Shown piece after piece: positions 15,756-25,826 of a stretch of DNA of 64,000 nt. This DNA is from Escherichia phage EdH4. The notes beneath the pieces are model-generated. The model saw only the letters and a program-made list of their open reading frames with translations. It searched no databases and was not told where the DNA came from. The position numbers were made by a program, and so were the translations under genes. The DNA lies in sequence record MK327930.1. One strand, written 5' to 3'. Numbering within the stretch: position 1 is the first letter of the stretch; each line of letters opens with the position of its first letter.

Positions 15756-16982
15756 TTAAAATGGGATGTCATCATCAAAGACGTACTGTGCTGGATTCTG
15801 ATCCATCGGGTCATCTTCCTCATCATTTACAGGAGGGGCGTCTACAGTGTTTTGCTGTGGAGCGGCTTCCTGTTTGGCAGCTTGAGGTTCTTGATGGTCA
15901 GTGGACTCAGCACCGTTCTTGATCCAATCGTACAACGGCTCAGCCAGATTAGTCAAGACATCTTTTGCTTCTGCAGTAATTGCCACTGCAAAATCATCAA
16001 CTTTCGTTTTCTTGTCAATACGGCGACAAGCGTTCAACACCGCATTACCGACACTGGCACCTACTTCATCTTCAGTTCGGTTGGTGGCTTGAGCATACTC
16101 TTTCTTAAGCTCAATGGTGACTACGTGCAGTGTTTTAGCCACGCCCAGTGGGTCGTCTACCTTAAACCCGCGATCCAGGATGATCTGCAACGCATTGATG
16201 CTATGCCCCGTTTCCACACCGATAGGGTCGTAAGAGGATTTACGCTTGCCACCAGAGCCTTGAGTGCCGTTCTCTGCCTTAGGAGGATAGGCCTTGAAAC
16301 CACTGATAATGTTTCCGGTGTCTTTGTCAACAATGGCTGCAACACGACCACCTACCACCAGGTCTTTAAGCTGCTCATCAGTTACAACCATAGCACCTTC
16401 GCCAATCTTGTGGTCATTAACAGTAACCACGTTGCCAACAATCTGAGTCACATCACCATAGATGCGTAAAACGTCCTGATTGGCATTCTGCTGAGGTTTC
16501 TGCTTCTGGCCTTGTGATTGTGCACCTTGTTGCTGTTTTTGCTGCTGAGTCGCTGCTGGAGCCTCTCCTGCACCCAGCTTAACCATCTTAGCCAGTGAGC
16601 CCTTGTAATAGGTCTTACCGTTATGCTCGTTTGCCTTCAAAGGTATATTTACGATCCATCCTGGCGTTACGGTTTCCCACTTGTCATCAATCTTAACAGA
16701 GACAGAGTCTTGATGACCTGGTTTAAGCAGCTTATCACCCATGCTGATCCAGACTTCTTCACCACCTTGAAGCAGGTTATCAGAGGAATCCAGTTCAGAA
16801 ATCAGTAAAGAGATGGTGTGGCTGGATTCAATTTTCTTACCTTGCCACACAGTGGTTTTAATACCTGTTGTAGGATCAGCACCTTTGATAGGCTTGATGC
16901 TAACACGTTTAATCATGCCGTGAGCCAGTAAAACAGTTTCACGCGGATTCATTGGGTTAGCGAATTGTTGAATAACGCTCAT
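15756..16982 (-). CDS. Single-stranded DNA-binding-like protein with SSB-type acidic C-terminal tail
   Basis: C-terminus ...DDDIPF is identical to the E. coli SSB tip; Q-rich linker QQQKQQQGAQSQGQKQKPQQ; 408 aa. Confidence 0.6.
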   Translation of the reverse strand: MSVIQQFANPMNPRETVLLAHGMIKRVSIKPIKGADPTTGIKTTVWQGKKIESSHTISLLISELDSSDNLLQGGEEVWISMGDKLLKPGHQDSVSVKIDDKWETVTPGWIVNIPLKANEHNGKTYYKGSLAKMVKLGAGEAPAATQQQKQQQGAQSQGQKQKPQQNANQDVLRIYGDVTQIVGNVVTVNDHKIGEGAMVVTDEQLKDLVVGGRVAAIVDKDTGNIISGFKAYPPKAENGTQGSGGKRKSSYDPIGVETGHSINALQIILDRGFKVDDPLGVAKTLHVVTIELKKEYAQATNRTEDEVGASVGNAVLNACRRIDKKTKVDDFAVAITAEAKDVLTNLAEPLYDWIKNGAESTDHQEPQAAKQEAAPQQNTVDAPPVNDEEDDPMDQNPAQYVFDDDIPF

Positions 16983-19827: not shown

Positions 19828-20198
19828 TGATCGGTCTCCTTCTTGTTAAGTCTGAATACTGCAATAATAGCATTCCCAAGGTGCAGTGTCAAATCATTTC
19901 CAAGATACCACAACATTCCACGGTCATCTTTAATGAAAGGGTAACAATCCGGTGCCTTCCAGACATTGTACACCTTGCCAACCTGAAAGAAATCAGGCCC
20001 TGTTGGGATTTTGGTGCCAGGCCACACTTGAGATACCTGAACACACTCCACCTGCATAATAACAGGGATAGTCATGGATGTAAATGTTTTTGTTGGTTCT
20101 ACTACCATAAAAGTCTCCTCTTTACTCAACAACACTTCCATGTGTTGATAGTTTACATTAGTGACAATCACCCCAATTACGACCACACAAGTATTCAC
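19824..20198 (-). CDS. Small protein, paralogue family 2 (member c, longer)
   Basis: C-terminal DDRGMLWYLGNDLTLHLGN resembles the two preceding genes. Confidence 0.5.
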   Translation of the reverse strand: MNTCVVVIGVIVTNVNYQHMEVLLSKEETFMVVEPTKTFTSMTIPVIMQVECVQVSQVWPGTKIPTGPDFFQVGKVYNVWKAPDCYPFIKDDRGMLWYLGNDLTLHLGNAIIAVFRLNKKETDQ

Positions 20199-22935
20199 CT
20201 GTGATCTGGAACGGGACTCCCATCATTTTAGAAGCTTGCCAGAAGCAATGCACCACCATTTCACCCACAGGGCTCCAGATAAGTTCAAGCTTTCCGTCAT
20301 CGTTCAGGATAGGATCGTACACCGTGTTTCCGTCTCTGTCAACCACTTCGTTTCCGTCCTCATCCTTGCGTGCCTTTTTGTACTTATGACCGTCGAACAC
20401 ATGAAGTTTGGCTTCCTGCTCTGCCTTAAATGCTTCCAGTTCTTCAATTGTGTCGAAGGTGTACACAGTCTTATACTTCGGTGTGTCAGGCACTTGAAGC
20501 TGATATTCGTCATGGTAATAGATAATACGGCGAACACCTTCATCGTACCACCCACGCTTCACCATTTGGTGGTGCATGAGTATCCCAACTAAGTCACACA
20601 ACGATGCACCACCATTTTGTTGGTATGCATTAAGTAAAGAGTGTTTAGATCGGGTCCAGATGGCATGACCATCAAAAGAGTAGATAAACTTCTTACCCGT
20701 TGCTTCCCAGAATTTCTCCAGATCTTCTTTACGCCCCTTAAGACCGGGGTTGGCATCCCAAAGTGCATCGATTACCCTTTGTCCCAACTCTGGAGAGATA
20801 TCCAGCATGTCTGCAACTTTATCTTTTTGTGCCCCGTACATAACCCCATACGTGATAGGTTTACCGTCGTTACGAGACACCTCTCTACCTGCTACTTTTG
20901 TATATGCCTCAGCATTGTTTTGGTGTGCGTCCCCGTTACTTACAACATCGTAATACAGGCCGTTGTCGAACTCAAAGGCACCCCAAGCCCCGATAAGCTG
21001 CTCTAAGTTGGACCCGTCAATACCGATCTCAAAGTATCCTGGAGGAACACCCCACAGACTACGCATCTCTTTACCCATAACCACTTTAGGAGATGGTTTA
21101 GGCATGTTTGCACAAATACTGTGTTTCTGTCGGGAAGTGTTTGTTAATCCAGAACTTTTAGCAGGAAGCTTATGGTCAATCTTCAAACGTGGGTGATTAA
21201 GAAGACCAGTATCAACCTTATCCTCCTTGATTGGATCAAGGACCGATCTGCGGTTTCGCAATGATAACCACAAGACGATATCTTTAGCCATCTCTCCGTT
21301 CAATTTTTCAAGATTTGGGCATAGGTGTCCAAACGTATCTTTCAGTTGCGGAGAAGTAATAAGTGCCCTGGCTTTTCTACGTATTTTCCCGAACACTTCC
21401 TTTTTAATCCTTTCGGAGTTAGGAAAGCTTCGGAACTTGTGCACGGTTGTCTGAAACTTAGCATCAGTTTTGTTCCAGAAGTTGATAATCAGGTCACAAT
21501 ACTCTGACTCTAAAAGCTCGTCCATGTATGCATATACTCGTGCATCAACATCTGCATCAGGTAGAGCTTTCTTCTTGCTGTCTTTAGTTACATCCTTAGT
21601 TCTCCACATTGTCGGAAGCCAACCAGCACTGATCAGGTATCGCTTAATGTCGTCCTGATTGCTGATTTTCATAGGTATCTTGCAGTCAGGCATTCGCTTC
21701 TGCTGTAGATCACTTATTGCCTGATCCATCAGCTCTTTAGGTAAAGGTTGTGGTGTGGAAGTGCCCTTAATATAGCCTCTCAAGAAAGCAGCCATCTTAT
21801 CAGGGTCTTTGCAGCCCATCTCTTCACACCATTTTATCCCCATCTTACTGACATCTCCTGTGGAGGTAAATGCTCGCTTAGGTGGGGCTTTGAAATCTAA
21901 AGCGCTCATGTCCACAGGATAGCCAAGCTTATCTTTTAACCATTTCCAACCATTATTGGAGATTGTCCCATCTTGGTTAAACGGCTTTTCAGGGAACTTG
22001 GGCCGCTGAGATATTGACAACTCTTTTAAAGGGAGTTGAGGTTCAACACGATCAGCGATCTCTTTCATCCACGCATCGCAACGGTCACGTAAAGCAATAG
22101 CCCCATCTATGTCGAAATACACACCCTGACGGGCCTGCAGCTCCATCAGGAAGTGCTGCAGCATGCCTCGGCGTAATGCGTTCTTCCAGGTGATCTTCTT
22201 GAACCCTTTCGGCTTCTCTTTGGCAGGATCGTACATAAAGTTCTGCATGTCAGATTTGCCGTAGAATACACCTTTTGATTCCGCTACCAGCTCTTTCCAG
22301 AGCAGCTCCTGGATGATAACGTCCTCGAATACACGATCCACATACTTCCACAACGGAAGATCGCGCCAGTCATCAATTTGAACTTTCTGGTTACCAAGTG
22401 CGTAGCCCCATGCCATAAGGCCGTGAGGACCAACAGGCTGCATTTTCTTAGTAACCGGGTTGAATACGGAGTCAGGACAACCTTTTGGTAAAGGGCGATC
22501 AGGCCATAAGATTCGGCTCATCGCCAACGTATCAAACAGGTTAACCTGGTGGTCGTTGATAGTCCCCATGCATTTAGGATCACGGAACATATCAAAATGA
22601 ATACCGGATAATCTTTCCATCAGCATAAAGTCATAACTGTAGCAGTTATGGCAGTTCAAAGCTGTTGGTGACCAGTCGGAATTGCCTGTGAGCCAACCTT
22701 CCAACTCCGAAAAATCTGCTATGCGAACTTCAAAATCTTTATAAAGAGTTTTCTTTGCCAGAATGAAGTTCTTAGCCTTTTCTATATCCTCCTCGGAGTA
22801 GTGTGTGCGGTCATTTAGAGGAAGGAACAGCATAAAACGGTTCTTATTCAGCTCTTTAAACAGACCGCAGTGATAATAAAGATCTGGGTCTTCCAGCAAA
22901 CCGGATGACTCAAAATCGAAAGACCACATGCTCAT
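20158..22935 (-). CDS. DNA polymerase, family A, with 3'-5' exonuclease domain
   Basis: Exo I FDFESSG; motif A DGSNLEQLI; motif B RNDGKPITYGVMYGAQ; motif C YYHDEYQL; 925 aa. Confidence 0.9.
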   Translation of the reverse strand: MSMWSFDFESSGLLEDPDLYYHCGLFKELNKNRFMLFLPLNDRTHYSEEDIEKAKNFILAKKTLYKDFEVRIADFSELEGWLTGNSDWSPTALNCHNCYSYDFMLMERLSGIHFDMFRDPKCMGTINDHQVNLFDTLAMSRILWPDRPLPKGCPDSVFNPVTKKMQPVGPHGLMAWGYALGNQKVQIDDWRDLPLWKYVDRVFEDVIIQELLWKELVAESKGVFYGKSDMQNFMYDPAKEKPKGFKKITWKNALRRGMLQHFLMELQARQGVYFDIDGAIALRDRCDAWMKEIADRVEPQLPLKELSISQRPKFPEKPFNQDGTISNNGWKWLKDKLGYPVDMSALDFKAPPKRAFTSTGDVSKMGIKWCEEMGCKDPDKMAAFLRGYIKGTSTPQPLPKELMDQAISDLQQKRMPDCKIPMKISNQDDIKRYLISAGWLPTMWRTKDVTKDSKKKALPDADVDARVYAYMDELLESEYCDLIINFWNKTDAKFQTTVHKFRSFPNSERIKKEVFGKIRRKARALITSPQLKDTFGHLCPNLEKLNGEMAKDIVLWLSLRNRRSVLDPIKEDKVDTGLLNHPRLKIDHKLPAKSSGLTNTSRQKHSICANMPKPSPKVVMGKEMRSLWGVPPGYFEIGIDGSNLEQLIGAWGAFEFDNGLYYDVVSNGDAHQNNAEAYTKVAGREVSRNDGKPITYGVMYGAQKDKVADMLDISPELGQRVIDALWDANPGLKGRKEDLEKFWEATGKKFIYSFDGHAIWTRSKHSLLNAYQQNGGASLCDLVGILMHHQMVKRGWYDEGVRRIIYYHDEYQLQVPDTPKYKTVYTFDTIEELEAFKAEQEAKLHVFDGHKYKKARKDEDGNEVVDRDGNTVYDPILNDDGKLELIWSPVGEMVVHCFWQASKMMGVPFQITGEYLCGRNWGDCH

Positions 22936-22993
22936 ATACAGTTCTCCTTAAAGGGGAGGCGGTTGTACTACCCCTCCCACTCTTGGTTAAACA

Positions 22994-25072
22994 TTAAAAA
23001 GGCGTTTCATCGTCCTCAAAACCAGGGACAGGGTCAGAGGATGGATCATCGTACTGTAGGTCTTCTTGTGTGTCAACAGGCTTAACAGTAGGAGTTACAA
23101 CCTTATCAGCCACAACCTTGCCCATAGGTGTTTCTACAACTGCATGCTCCTGATCCTCAAACATAGCCTGGGGTCTCCAAACAACCTCCCCACCTTCTCC
23201 GTCTGTAAACATCTGCATTTCTTTGTCCCAGTACCAATTACTGGCATCATGGAACTTACCTGTATGCGGATCCATAACTAAAGTGTCAGCAATACCTAAA
23301 GTTTTTGCTGGACGGTTTTTAAGACCTACCAGACGGACACGTCCACGAGAACGATCCACCATTTCTTCGGCCTCGACACCTATGACTACCCAACTCAACT
23401 GTTCAAGCCCAGCCGATCCTCGCAAATTCTCTTTTCGCACAGGATACCAGAAAGGTAATGGGTTACCATCCTTGTCCTTAGGGGGCACAATCTCTGTACG
23501 TTTGAGGTGAGCGATCACCAAGATAAACACGTTAAACTGCTTACAAAACGCAGCCAGTTGGGTCATAGCCATGTCCAGTTCTTTTCGCTCATCCTTAACA
23601 TTAAGCCCTGAAATTACCATGGACAGGTGATCCAGCACAATATAACGACAATGGTACAGGCAAACCATTTGCTTAAGCTTGGTAATCAACTCGTCCACTG
23701 GAATAGACCCGAAATGTTTGAACACTTTGATTTTTCCAGCTTTTGCCCATGATTGGTGAATCTCTGCGTGTTCTTGATCAGTTAAAAACTGGCTAGGATC
23801 TTCAACAAACTCTTTAACATCAAACCCTAACTGGTTTGCATACAAGGAGTTAATTGCTTCCTCTGGGTCCTCCTCAAGATGAATCATGCATAGACGATCA
23901 TCCTCTTCGTAATCATCAGCCTTTGGACATGTCGGGTCCATTAGGTATCTTGCAATACAGTGTTCCAGTTTTTTAGCTACAGTTGTTTTACCGCCCCCTG
24001 ATGGACCTGTAAGCATTACGAGTGTCCCTTTGTGCAAGCCTTTTAGCATTTTTTGCAGTTTTGGGAACTCTGCGCTGATATCTACCCCGTTGGAAGTCTT
24101 TTTCCGCAAAGATTCGATAGAGAAGTCTTCTAAATCCGATACAGCATCCGGTACATACTTAACAGGATGCCGGAACATGTTTACAATATCTTCCAGCTTT
24201 TTAGCCTTCAGCATGTCACGGATATCTTTTACACCGTCAGGATCGTTTACTTCACCAGGGTACTCTACGTGGTAAACGTTATCAGCCATCAAAAATGCTG
24301 CGATATTGTGCGTAGCCTCAACACCTTTAATGACGTGTTTTTGCTTCTCTACCTCGTTAGCTGCATCGTTATCCATTGCCAGCACAACTGTTCCATAGCT
24401 ACGGATAAACTTCTCATTGTTTGCAAAAGTATCTACTGCGTTTGCACATCCACAGTTAATTCCAACAAAAGGTAGGCAGGGTTTTCCTGCCAGATCACCA
24501 CCGTTGATAACTGCATCGATCCCGTCCTGTACCTCTTTAGCCCACTGCTTCACCTTTGCCGGGGCTTTAGCGTTGGTGAGAATCCCTTTTACTTGTATCT
24601 GATATGCAGCCTGCCATGCTGCAATAACATCACCTTCTCCCTCGCAAACGTTAATCTGCTTACGGTTGTTGGAAGATGCACACAGCTTTTGCCCAAACAT
24701 CTGGGAGTTAGCCTTTACTATGCCAACAACGGAGAAATGGCCCCTTTGCTCTTTAGGAATCGTCCAGTCACGCTTTTTGAAACCTGACAGATTTCCGTAG
24801 CGGTCGTAATATGGGAAATATGTTGCAGTGACTGTCACACCGTCTTCTTGGGACAATGCTGATCGCACACCAAAATATTGTGCAGCCATCAGACCGATAT
24901 TTTGTTGTGGGACAGGGACAATTTTAGTATTTTCTAAAACAGTCTCTACAGTTTCAACTTCTTTTTCATCACGATAGTCTCGTTTCACACTCCCCCCACT
25001 TTTATACTTAGTTGCTTTCGGGTTTGGCTCACCGAAACGGTTGTATGCAGATGCCATAAATTTACTTCCCAT
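22994..25072 (-). CDS. Bifunctional primase-helicase (TOPRIM plus DnaB-like helicase)
   Basis: TOPRIM CEGEGD and VLAMDNDAAN; Walker A GPSGGGKT; acidic C-terminal tail ...FEDDETPF. Confidence 0.85.
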   Translation of the reverse strand: MGSKFMASAYNRFGEPNPKATKYKSGGSVKRDYRDEKEVETVETVLENTKIVPVPQQNIGLMAAQYFGVRSALSQEDGVTVTATYFPYYDRYGNLSGFKKRDWTIPKEQRGHFSVVGIVKANSQMFGQKLCASSNNRKQINVCEGEGDVIAAWQAAYQIQVKGILTNAKAPAKVKQWAKEVQDGIDAVINGGDLAGKPCLPFVGINCGCANAVDTFANNEKFIRSYGTVVLAMDNDAANEVEKQKHVIKGVEATHNIAAFLMADNVYHVEYPGEVNDPDGVKDIRDMLKAKKLEDIVNMFRHPVKYVPDAVSDLEDFSIESLRKKTSNGVDISAEFPKLQKMLKGLHKGTLVMLTGPSGGGKTTVAKKLEHCIARYLMDPTCPKADDYEEDDRLCMIHLEEDPEEAINSLYANQLGFDVKEFVEDPSQFLTDQEHAEIHQSWAKAGKIKVFKHFGSIPVDELITKLKQMVCLYHCRYIVLDHLSMVISGLNVKDERKELDMAMTQLAAFCKQFNVFILVIAHLKRTEIVPPKDKDGNPLPFWYPVRKENLRGSAGLEQLSWVVIGVEAEEMVDRSRGRVRLVGLKNRPAKTLGIADTLVMDPHTGKFHDASNWYWDKEMQMFTDGEGGEVVWRPQAMFEDQEHAVVETPMGKVVADKVVTPTVKPVDTQEDLQYDDPSSDPVPGFEDDETPF

Positions 25073-25826
25073 TAATTCTGCTCCTTACTACAGGCTCGTT
25101 TGCTAAGAATACGGCTTTTGCCCAGCCACGTGGTGTGAGACTTCGAATCATCTTCGTTCTTGCACTCTTTCCACCCAGCTTGGCGTGTTGCATAGAATAC
25201 CCGCTAACCGCGTCAACTATTTGCGGGACAGGTTTTGTGGGCGGGATTATAAATCCATTACCTATCCAGCCGCAAGTTATTTTTGGATAGGCATCACGTG
25301 GAGCTATAAATTCAGGAAACCAAGGGTTTACATCATCCTCCGGTAAATACCCACCATAGTCAGAAGGATGAAAACGGTAATCAGGTTTGCGCCACAGTGT
25401 GGACATAACACCCACAGGATTCTCTACATGCCACGGGCAATCGTAAATCTCTCCCAGCTCTTCCGCAACCCGAGCATCCTTTACGGCATTAATTTGGATC
25501 AGAGGGTCCTTAGCCAGCTTTTTCTTAAAATGTGCAGCACCTGATACCGCTAAATGCGTGCACGGAGGAAATGCAAGAATAAAGTCTGGAGCTGGGTACA
25601 TGCAAAAAGTTTCCTGAGGGAACCATGGGTCAATCCAATAATCCACATAGTGAATGTTGGGATGATCGGTTATAACCTCTGCATAACTGCCGTGATCAGC
25701 GCCTTCTGCATTAAAGCACAGGCACAGGTACCCAGCTTTTGCCCAGTCAATGACTGCACCACCAGACCCGTCAAATAGACTCCACACAACACCTTTGTGG
25801 TAGTGTTCTTTGTAGATAAATTTCAA
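25062..25826 (-). CDS. Putative DNA (cytosine-5)-methyltransferase-like protein
   Basis: Motif I SLFDGSGG; motif IV FPPCTHLAVSG; motif VI HVENPVG; start trimmed to a TTG with an AGGAG RBS because the track start lies inside the terminator hairpin. Confidence 0.5.
   Translation of the reverse strand: MKFIYKEHYHKGVVWSLFDGSGGAVIDWAKAGYLCLCFNAEGADHGSYAEVITDHPNIHYVDYWIDPWFPQETFCMYPAPDFILAFPPCTHLAVSGAAHFKKKLAKDPLIQINAVKDARVAEELGEIYDCPWHVENPVGVMSTLWRKPDYRFHPSDYGGYLPEDDVNPWFPEFIAPRDAYPKITCGWIGNGFIIPPTKPVPQIVDAVSGYSMQHAKLGGKSARTKMIRSLTPRGWAKAVFLANEPVVRSRINGK

What the first reader, a model, noticed from the sequence alone, without database searches (positions are those of the whole stretch)
22994..23035. 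Primase-helicase also ends in an acidic tail finishing in PF
The primase-helicase C-terminus is ...DPVPGFEDDETPF, an acidic run ending in Pro-Phe like the SSB-like protein's DDDIPF. In T7, acidic Phe-terminated tails on the helicase and on the SSB both dock onto the DNA polymerase. Two replication proteins here carry similar tails, suggesting a shared docking site on the polymerase or on a host factor.
Basis: partly seen in the sequence, partly recalled or inferred. Interest (0 to 1): 0.4.

Follow-up and report, generated by a model that had tools for sequence, protein, structure and literature searches.

The report
Conserved acidic Pro-Phe tail on primase-helicase
The replicative primase-helicase of this rV5-like E. 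coli phage ends in a floppy acidic tail with a strictly conserved Pro-Phe tip, the same kind of docking handle known from phage T7's helicase and from bacterial SSB, so it is a real but largely expected feature.

Summary
ORF 22994..25072 (-) encodes a 692-aa T7-gp4-type primase-helicase ending ...DPVPGFEDDETPF*. ORF 15756..16982 (-) ends ...FDDDIPF*, which includes the published E. coli SSB-Ct hexapeptide DDDIPF.

It is not chance. In 61 of 69 non-redundant tails of relatives (42-100% identity) the last two residues are invariably P-F, while the about 45 residues before the tip are hypervariable and predicted disordered. Of about 245 ORFs across this phage type, only these two end in PF. Across the wider gp4-like family, 54% of representatives end in Phe or Tyr (7.6% expected), so an acidic, aromatic-ended tail is a family trait, as in T7 gp4 (...DTDF).

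The helicase and the polymerase immediately downstream have T7 gp4 and T7 gp5 as their closest solved relatives. The "SSB-like" protein has an OB fold, a disordered linker and the SSB-Ct tip. The T7-style reading, tails tethering partners to the polymerase, is therefore the best inference, but no receptor was identified.

The two tips also differ consistently at position -2: Thr/Ser/Cys/Glu in the helicase, Ile/Val/Leu in the SSB-like protein.

Verdict: a new member of a known kind, of modest interest.

Side finding: in other phages the same tip carries a conserved 15-aa add-on, often next to homing endonucleases.

The parts
22994..25072 (-). Gene for a 692-aa T7-gp4-type bifunctional primase-helicase. 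The TOPRIM/primase part is about residues 40-305 and the DnaB-family helicase part about residues 330-639.
   Evidence: ORF and translation. Pfam DnaB_C/AAA_25 at 331-589. PHROG 239 'DNA primase/helicase'. PDB best hit T7 gp4, E 4e-16. Foldseek of the AF2 model to T7 gp4 over about 575 columns, E 1e-29.
22997..23155 (-). Disordered acidic C-terminal tail, residues 640-692: DQEHAVVETPMGKVVADKVVTPTVKPVDTQEDLQYDDPSSDPVPGFEDDETPF.
   Evidence: AF2 pLDDT is below 50 for residues 640-692. There are 14 D/E against 3 K/R. The linker 640-684 has a mean majority fraction of 0.23 and 44% gaps in a 31-sequence alignment, against 0.71 for the helicase domain.
22997..23020 (-). Conserved tip FEDDETPF, residues 685-692. 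Pattern: hydrophobic, acidic run, small polar residue, Pro, Phe-COOH.
   Evidence: Translation. P and F are invariant in 61 of 69 non-redundant homologue tails, D dominates at -3, -5 and -7, and T/S/E/C occupy -2.
22994..22996 (-). Stop codon TAA directly after the terminal Phe, so the Phe alpha-carboxylate is free in this phage. There is no 15-aa add-on here.
   Evidence: Sequence. The downstream sequence is a stem-loop plus RBS and the polymerase start codon, not an extension.
20158..22935 (-). Family A DNA polymerase gene (925 aa), 58 nt downstream of the helicase gene. It is the candidate receptor for the tails; this is inferred, not shown.
   Evidence: Pfam DNA_pol_A (weak) and PHROG DNA polymerase. 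Best PDB hits are T7 gp5, E 7e-16.
15756..16982 (-). Gene for the 408-aa 'SSB-like' protein. Architecture: OB-like domain 1-138, disordered linker 141-169, small beta-barrel 171-232, four-helix bundle 253-356, disordered acidic tail 359-408.
15759..15779 (-). Tip FDDDIPF of the SSB-like protein. It contains the E. coli SSB-Ct hexapeptide DDDIPF.
   Evidence: Translation. P407 and F408 are invariant in 30 homologues. SSB-Ct = DDDIPF per PMC5872125. The canonical phage SSB of mEp235 carries PPMDFDDDIPF.

Best explanation
The last about 53 residues of this T7-gp4-type primase-helicase form a flexible, acidic, proline-rich tether. It ends in a short linear docking motif: hydrophobic residue, acidic run, x, Pro, Phe with a free carboxylate.

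Six such tails project from the C-terminal face of the helicase hexamer. By homology with T7, they most likely bind a basic patch plus an aromatic pocket on the phage's own T7-type family A polymerase, encoded immediately downstream. That would keep the leading-strand, lagging-strand and spare polymerases attached to the helicase and raise processivity.

The phage's OB-fold SSB-like protein carries the same architecture (disordered acidic linker plus FDDDIPF tip). It probably uses the same or an overlapping class of site for hand-off and displacement at the fork.

Shown here: the gene identities, the disorder, the acidity, the conservation of the tip, and the fact that an aromatic end is family-wide. 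Inferred: the identity of the receptor, and that the two tails share it.
For: - The tail and tip are present.
- P-F is invariant in 61 of 69 non-redundant tails down to 42% identity, while the preceding linker is hypervariable and gappy. This is the signature of a short linear motif on a disordered tether.
- AF2 gives pLDDT below 50 for residues 640-692.
- Among 131 representatives (50% identity clusters, at least 400 aa) of the wider gp4-like family, 45 end in F and 26 in Y. That is 54% against 7.6% expected, p about 5e-44. Their last 10 residues are 25% acidic against 14% overall. The trait is therefore inherited with the family that includes T7 gp4 (...DTDF).
- The closest solved relatives of the helicase and of the adjacent polymerase are T7 gp4 and T7 gp5.
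- In T7, gp4 C-tails bind basic patches on gp5, and removing them cuts processivity threefold (PMC8472574). The gp2.5 tail with its C-terminal Phe binds the front basic patch, and a DTDF peptide is seen bound in PDB 6P7E (PMC12339929).
- Only these two proteins of about 245 ORFs in this phage type end in PF.
- In other phages, helicase homologues and SSB-type proteins acquire the same optional 15-aa add-on after PF. The same homing-endonuclease family sits after both genes, so the two tails behave as equivalent modules.
Against: - No binding or structural evidence for any receptor was obtainable.
- The T7 front basic patch (KWKRRW) aligns to ...TGKKF... here, so it is only partly conserved. 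The polymerase is 220 aa longer than gp5, with no recognisable thioredoxin-binding domain in the sequence comparison.
- The tip is of the bacterial SSB-Ct type (Pro-Phe) rather than T7's Asp-Phe. Only 7 of 131 family representatives end in PF, which may point to a different kind of pocket.
- Helicase and SSB-like tips differ systematically at -2, polar against Ile/Val/Leu. A strictly shared pocket would have to tolerate both.
- Relatives with the 15-aa add-on bury the Phe carboxylate.
Confidence: 0.55

Rival explanations
1. SSB-Ct mimicry aimed at host proteins. The Pro-Phe tips plug into the pockets that E. coli proteins use to bind the host SSB C-terminus (Pol III chi, PriA, RecQ, ExoI, DnaG, RNase HI and others). 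The helicase hexamer and the SSB-like protein would then recruit, or compete away, host genome-maintenance factors at phage forks.
For: The SSB-like tip FDDDIPF contains the host SSB-Ct hexapeptide DDDIPF, although the protein's body has no detectable sequence similarity to bacterial SSB (PMC5872125). The helicase tip shares the defining Pro-Phe-COOH, the acidic run and the upstream Phe. The PF ending is confined to a clade of phages of Enterobacteria and Vibrio and is rare in the wider family, 7 of 131.
Against: The phage encodes its own polymerase, primase-helicase, Pif1-like helicase, ligase, RNase H and exonucleases, so its need for host replisome factors is unclear. The helicase tip lacks the Ile/Val/Leu at -2 that is kept in SSB-type tips. 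A phage SSB tail of this type is known to bind a phage partner (HK620 SSB NDYPPF with Sak4; PMC5928155), so a PF tip does not imply a host target.
Confidence: 0.2
2. Intramolecular or SSB-directed switch. The acidic tail mainly binds a basic DNA-binding surface, either the helicase/primase's own or the OB groove of the SSB-like protein. It would act as an autoinhibitory DNA mimic or a helicase-SSB coupling device rather than a polymerase tether.
For: Acidic SSB tails are reported to occupy their own DNA-binding groove: T7 gp2.5 in the AF2 model and MD of PMC12339929, and E. coli SSB binds its own site weakly according to PMC5928155's discussion. Both proteins here have long, strongly net-negative tails.
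Against: Pure electrostatic DNA mimicry would not require an invariant Pro-Phe at the very end. In T7 the same tails also bind the polymerase, so this mode is more likely additional than exclusive.
Confidence: 0.15
3. Coincidence. A low-complexity acidic end that happens to finish in PF, with no specific function.
For: Acidic C-termini are common in this window; several ORFs end in E/D-rich runs.
Against: P-F is invariant across 61 non-redundant tails while the adjacent linker is hypervariable. About 0.17 PF ends are expected per 103 genes, and the only two observed are both replication proteins. The aromatic end is enriched family-wide, p about 5e-44.
Confidence: 0.02

Closest known systems
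Bacteriophage T7 gp4 helicase-primase C-terminal tail (17 acidic residues ending ...DTDF)
   Same: Homologous protein: best PDB hit, with both primase and helicase domains aligned. [quoted passage not shown] Both are paired with a T7-gp5-like family A polymerase and with an SSB that carries a similar tail. In T7 the tail binds basic patches on the polymerase and raises processivity (PMC8472574, PMC12339929).
   Different: The tail here is about 53 residues, against 17 in T7 (the T7 length is from memory). It ends Pro-Phe, not Asp-Phe. The T7 front basic patch is only partly conserved in this polymerase. The protein lacks the N-terminal Cys4 zinc-binding domain; there is no Cys in the first about 130 residues. 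No binding data exist for it.
E. coli / bacterial SSB C-terminal tip (SSB-Ct, DDDIPF)
   Same: Extreme C-terminal Pro-Phe-COOH preceded by an acidic run and, 6-7 residues upstream, a Phe. It sits at the end of an intrinsically disordered, Pro-rich linker. The SSB-like protein in the same phage carries the hexapeptide itself (PMC5872125).
   Different: It is carried by a hexameric helicase, not an OB-fold SSB. Position -2 is Thr (Ser/Cys/Glu in relatives) instead of Ile/Val/Leu. Binding to SSB-Ct pockets is untested.
T7 gp2.5 SSB acidic tail with essential C-terminal Phe
   Same: This is the precedent for an SSB and a helicase in one phage carrying matching acidic Phe-ended tails that address the polymerase.
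   Different: The SSB-like protein here is 408 aa, with an OB fold plus a beta-barrel and a four-helix bundle, and no detectable sequence similarity to solved gp2.5. Its tip copies the host SSB, not T7.
Phage HK620 SSB tail NDYPPF binding Sak4 annealase
   Same: A phage protein with an SSB-Ct-like Pro-Phe end whose last six residues are needed to recruit a phage-encoded partner (PMC5928155). This shows that such tips can serve phage-phage contacts.
   Different: The carrier is an SSB and the partner is a recombinase. No helicase is involved.

Membership tests
T7 gp4-type bifunctional primase-helicase | RecA-type, DnaB-family hexameric helicase domain with Walker A | tested here: met
   Pfam DnaB_C/AAA_25 at residues 331-589. 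GPSGGGKT motif. PDB T7 gp4, E 4e-16. Foldseek TMt about 0.8 to the gp4 helicase domain.
T7 gp4-type bifunctional primase-helicase | N-terminal TOPRIM/RNA-polymerase primase domain fused to the helicase | tested here: met
   Foldseek aligns about 570-590 columns to the 56-kDa gp4 chains that include the primase domain. EGEGD and DNDaA motifs align with T7 EGEID and DMDeA. PHROG 239.
T7 gp4-type bifunctional primase-helicase | N-terminal Cys4 zinc-binding domain (63-kDa form of gp4) | tested here: not met
   No cysteine in the first about 130 residues, and residues 1-37 are predicted disordered. That gp4 has this domain is from my own knowledge.
T7 gp4-type bifunctional primase-helicase | Disordered acidic C-terminal tail ending in an aromatic residue | tested here: met
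   pLDDT below 50 for residues 640-692; 14 D/E against 3 K/R; terminal Phe. 54% of family representatives end in F or Y.
T7 gp4-type bifunctional primase-helicase | The tail binds the cognate family A polymerase | not testable with these tools
   No complex prediction or binding assay was available. The polymerase is T7-gp5-like, but the T7 front basic patch is only partly conserved.
Bacterial SSB-Ct-type docking tip | Pro-Phe at the extreme C-terminus with a free alpha-carboxylate | tested here: met
   ...ETPF followed directly by TAA.
Bacterial SSB-Ct-type docking tip | Run of Asp/Glu immediately upstream of the tip | tested here: met
   E-D-D-E at positions -6 to -3. D/E dominate -3, -5 and -7 in relatives.
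Bacterial SSB-Ct-type docking tip | Aliphatic residue (Ile/Val/Leu) at position -2 | tested here: not met
   Thr here, and T/S/E/C in 58 of 61 relatives. The SSB-like family keeps I/V/L.
Bacterial SSB-Ct-type docking tip | Carried on an OB-fold ssDNA-binding protein through a disordered linker | tested here: not met
   For the primase-helicase the linker is present, but the carrier is a helicase. The feature is met for the neighbouring SSB-like protein.
Bacterial SSB-Ct-type docking tip | Binds the basic-rim hydrophobic pockets of SSB-interacting proteins | not testable with these tools
   Needs peptide binding assays or multimer structure prediction.

The most novel reading that the evidence does not exclude
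The hexameric helicase displays six SSB-Ct-type Pro-Phe tips that address the same class of pockets as the host SSB tail. A replicative helicase would then act as an 'SSB-like hub' that recruits or sequesters host SSB-interactome proteins as well as the phage polymerase. In related phages the hub could be switched or masked by a conserved 15-aa cap (APxGLQYxxxxIxxL). That cap also occurs on canonical phage SSBs and serves as the landing site for a family of homing endonucleases.
Probability: 0.15. Interest if true: 0.6.

Novelty: new member of a known kind. Interest (0 to 1): 0.3.

Why it matters
The finding extends the T7 rule, that helicase and SSB carry matching acidic, Phe-ended tails addressing the polymerase, to the large and little-studied rV5-like (Vequintavirinae) myophages. 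It also shows that an aromatic C-terminus is a statistical hallmark of gp4-like helicases in general. The strictly conserved 8-residue tip gives a precise, cheap handle for dissecting an uncharacterised replisome by peptide competition, tail truncation or tip swaps. The SSB-Ct-like chemistry of the tip also raises a testable question: do phage helicases tap the host SSB interaction network? No new mechanism is demonstrated here.

Tried and rejected
- **Chance or composition:** rejected by the ORF census and by conservation.
- **Read-through or mis-called stop:** the window has a clean TAA followed by a stem-loop, an RBS and the polymerase ATG. No extension is encoded downstream.
- **Is the 15-aa add-on in relatives just a homing-endonuclease insertion scar?** Rejected as the sole explanation. 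Five of ten loci carry it with no endonuclease nearby. The peptide is also kept through many synonymous changes.
- **Sequence searches for the SSB-like protein:** Pfam, PHROG function and PDB sequences gave nothing. Only the fold comparison supported an OB/SSB-like core.
- **Mapping T7's polymerase docking patches onto this polymerase by sequence:** inconclusive; the front basic patch is only partly conserved.
- **Literature searches:** searches for rV5-type replisome tails and for SSB tails with C-terminal extensions found nothing specific.
- **About 1000-aa helicase relatives:** Pfam found no intein domain, so the about 310-aa insert is unexplained.
- **Polymerase-tail complex prediction:** not done.
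- **Third large protein-database search:** deliberately not used.

Full report
**Context.** The window is 98% identical over the 5.2-kb replication stretch (window 20000-25200) to rV5-like E. coli myophages such as nomo, pangalan and Murica (Vequintavirinae, genus Vequintavirus). The region of interest lies in a minus-strand early/replication block. It contains a Dcm-like methylase, the primase-helicase (22994..25072), a family A DNA polymerase (20158..22935), about a dozen small ORFs, and a 408-aa protein (15756..16982) that public records annotate as hypothetical.

**Observation.** The coordinates 22994..23035 are the stop codon plus the last 13 codons of the 692-aa ORF, which reads DPVPGFEDDETPF*. 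The 408-aa ORF ends QYVFDDDIPF*.

**What the proteins are.**
- *Helicase.* The 692-aa protein has Pfam DnaB_C/AAA_25 at residues 331-589 and matches PHROG 239, 'DNA primase/helicase'. Its best solved relatives by sequence are T7 gp4 chains (E 4e-16), followed by Twinkle. An AlphaFold2 model built on 31 homologues (mean pLDDT 78) aligns by Foldseek to T7 gp4 over about 575 columns covering both the primase and helicase parts (E 1e-29). Unlike the 63-kDa gp4, it has no N-terminal Cys4 zinc finger: there is no Cys in the first about 130 residues, and residues 1-37 are disordered.
- *Polymerase.* The 925-aa protein's best solved relatives are T7 gp5 (E 7e-16).

**Is the tail more than chance?** Three lines of evidence say yes.
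1. *ORF census.* Of 103 greedily chosen ORFs in the window, nine end in F and only these two end in PF, against about 0.17 expected. None of 142 further ORFs in the rest of the near-identical phage nomo genome ends in PF.
2. *Conservation in close relatives.* Among 120 database relatives of the helicase (42-100% identity) there are 69 non-redundant tails. Sixty-one end in P-F without exception, with D predominant at -3, -5 and -7 and T/S/E/C at -2. The linker residues 640-684 are the least conserved part of the protein (majority fraction 0.23, 44% gaps, against 0.71 for the helicase domain), and AF2 predicts residues 640-692 to be disordered. A conserved tip on a hypervariable disordered tether is the classic picture of a short linear docking motif.
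3. *Family-wide trend.* In an exhaustive search of 1.84 billion cluster representatives, 131 gp4-like proteins of at least 400 aa were examined. Forty-five end in F and 26 in Y, which is 54% against 7.6% expected (binomial p about 5e-44). Their last ten residues are enriched in acidic residues and depleted in basic ones. An acidic, aromatic-ended tail is thus a trait of the whole family that includes T7 gp4 (...DTDF). The Pro-Phe form is a clade-specific version, found in 7 of 131 representatives.

In the SSB-like family, P407 and F408 are two of only eleven invariant columns in a 30-sequence alignment.

**Mechanism.** In T7, the negatively charged gp4 C-tails contact positively charged patches on gp5. 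Removing them lowers processivity about threefold with little change in rate (PMC8472574). The gp2.5 tail, whose C-terminal Phe is essential, binds the front basic patch (K587, K589, R590, R591 and others). A DTDF peptide mimicking the gp4 end is seen on gp5 in PDB 6P7E (PMC12339929).

The helicase, polymerase and tail architecture here are all of the T7 type. The most economical explanation is therefore the same tethering function, with the SSB-like tail addressing the same or an overlapping site. This is inference by homology; nothing here shows binding.

Cautions:
- The T7 front patch KWKRRW aligns to a shorter TGKKF segment.
- The polymerase is 220 residues longer than gp5, with unmapped insertions.
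- The tip chemistry (Pro-Phe-COOH, an acidic run, and a Phe 7 residues upstream) resembles the bacterial SSB-Ct more than T7's Asp-Phe. SSB-Ct is DDDIPF and binds more than 14 partners through pockets with basic residues and a hydrophobic cavity (PMC5872125).
- The helicase and SSB-like tips differ consistently at -2: polar in the helicase, Ile/Val/Leu in the SSB-like protein. This also holds in pairs that appear to lie on the same contigs, judged by identical longest-contig lengths of 142008, 49616, 36914 and 81424 nt. Examples are FPEDEDCPF with WDWDESIPF, and LDNDTPF with YDEDIPF.

A host-factor target remains a live rival, as does a role as an intramolecular or SSB-directed acidic switch. 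A phage precedent for an SSB-Ct-like tip recruiting a phage partner exists: HK620 SSB NDYPPF with Sak4 (PMC5928155).

**Side finding.** Two helicase relatives (P0013, P0022) and eleven SSB-like relatives do not stop after PF. They continue with a 15-aa add-on, for example ...TPF-APIGLQYANHAIYVL and ...IPF-APVGLQYGKSRIHAL.
- *Distribution.* tblastn finds this add-on in 234 phage records. It occurs on canonical bacterial-type SSBs of lambdoid coliphages (mEp235...DFDDDIPFAPVTLPFPRHAIHAI) and Vibrio phages, on a small Drexlerviridae SSB, on the SSB-like protein of a Pseudomonas phage, and on the Seunavirus primase-helicase of GAP31, as shown by the fetched loci. One search also places it under annotated primase/helicase genes of Klebsiella phages.
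- *Selection.* The first seven residues are kept through many synonymous codon changes. Over 45 locus pairs there are 229 synonymous and 307 non-synonymous codon differences. This points to selection on the peptide.
- *Homing endonucleases.* In five of ten loci a homing-endonuclease ORF starts within or just after the last codons of the add-on. It is either the zinc-finger type beginning MPCKxCxKCG... or, in one locus, an HNH_3 type. In the other five loci there is none.
- *Bearing on the finding.* The same endonuclease family sits behind both the helicase and the SSB-like gene, which fits the idea that the two tails are equivalent modules. The add-on would bury the Phe carboxylate, and its function is unknown.
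- *This window.* Neither gene in this window carries the add-on or an endonuclease.

**Verdict.** It is a new member of a known kind, the acidic aromatic-ended tails of gp4-type helicases and SSBs, with an SSB-Ct-like flavour. Interest is modest at 0.3. The add-on seen in related phages is the more unusual lead.

Noticed in passing
Not in the window. Loci L002 4225-4272, L003 5017-5064, L004/L005 3671-3718, L006 3683-3730, L007 2891-2938, L011 1525-1572, L012, L013, L014, L015 3025-3072: In related and unrelated phages, a conserved 15-aa add-on (A-P-[IV]-G-L-Q-[YF]-...-[YH]-x-[LIF]) follows the ...PF tip of SSB-like proteins, canonical SSBs and gp4-type primase-helicases. It occurs in 234 phage records. 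The peptide is kept through synonymous changes. It would bury the terminal Phe carboxylate, and its function is unknown.
   Followed up: partly
L002 4244-4867, L007 2928-3542, L014 1544-2038, L015 3062-3559, L003 5121-5666: A homing-endonuclease ORF starts inside or just after the last codons of that add-on, behind both SSB-like and primase-helicase genes. It is usually a zinc-finger type starting MPCKxCxKCG...EFYKH...DGHxNKCKxC with no Pfam hit, and once an HNH_3 type. This suggests the add-on coding DNA is the homing site. No such gene is present at either site in the window.
   Followed up: partly
window 24680-25072 (-), residues 1-130 of the primase-helicase: The primase-helicase has no N-terminal Cys4 zinc-binding domain. 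There is no cysteine in the first about 130 residues, and residues 1-37 are predicted disordered. In T7 that domain is needed for template-directed priming (from memory), so how this enzyme recognises priming sites is open.
   Followed up: partly
window 15756-16982 (-): The protein with the DDDIPF end is annotated 'hypothetical' in most phage records and belongs to an unknown-function PHROG. The model shows an OB fold, a small beta-barrel and a highly conserved four-helix bundle (invariant G255, G259, H260, N263, G312, L316). This is an unusual multi-domain SSB candidate worth characterising.
   Followed up: partly
P0006-P0008 and P0047-P0095 (relatives of the primase-helicase, 974-1025 aa): Many relatives carry an insert of about 310 aa inside the helicase domain, after about residue 525-555. 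Pfam detects no intein or endonuclease domain in two that were tested. It could be an undetected intein or another insertion.
   Followed up: partly
window 23048-23076 (-) and 22945-22985 (-): A sigma-70-like promoter match (TTGACA, 17 nt, TACGAT; 10 of 12) lies inside the tail-coding region. A GC-rich stem-loop (-21.9 kcal/mol, z = -2.1) sits in the 58-nt gap just before the polymerase RBS. Together they may allow separate or attenuated expression of the polymerase.
   Followed up: partly
L009 21560-22708 (-) (phage nomo, outside the window): The ribonucleotide reductase beta subunit ends ...DAEEEIWEF. This is another acidic, aromatic-ended tail, presumably the classical R2 tail that binds R1. 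It is unrelated to the PF tips but shows the same design principle.
   Followed up: no
L009 14838-15887 (-) (phage nomo, outside the window): This phage type encodes a ClpP-like protease subunit in its early region. It is noted only because a protease could in principle process C-terminal add-ons in relatives.
   Followed up: no
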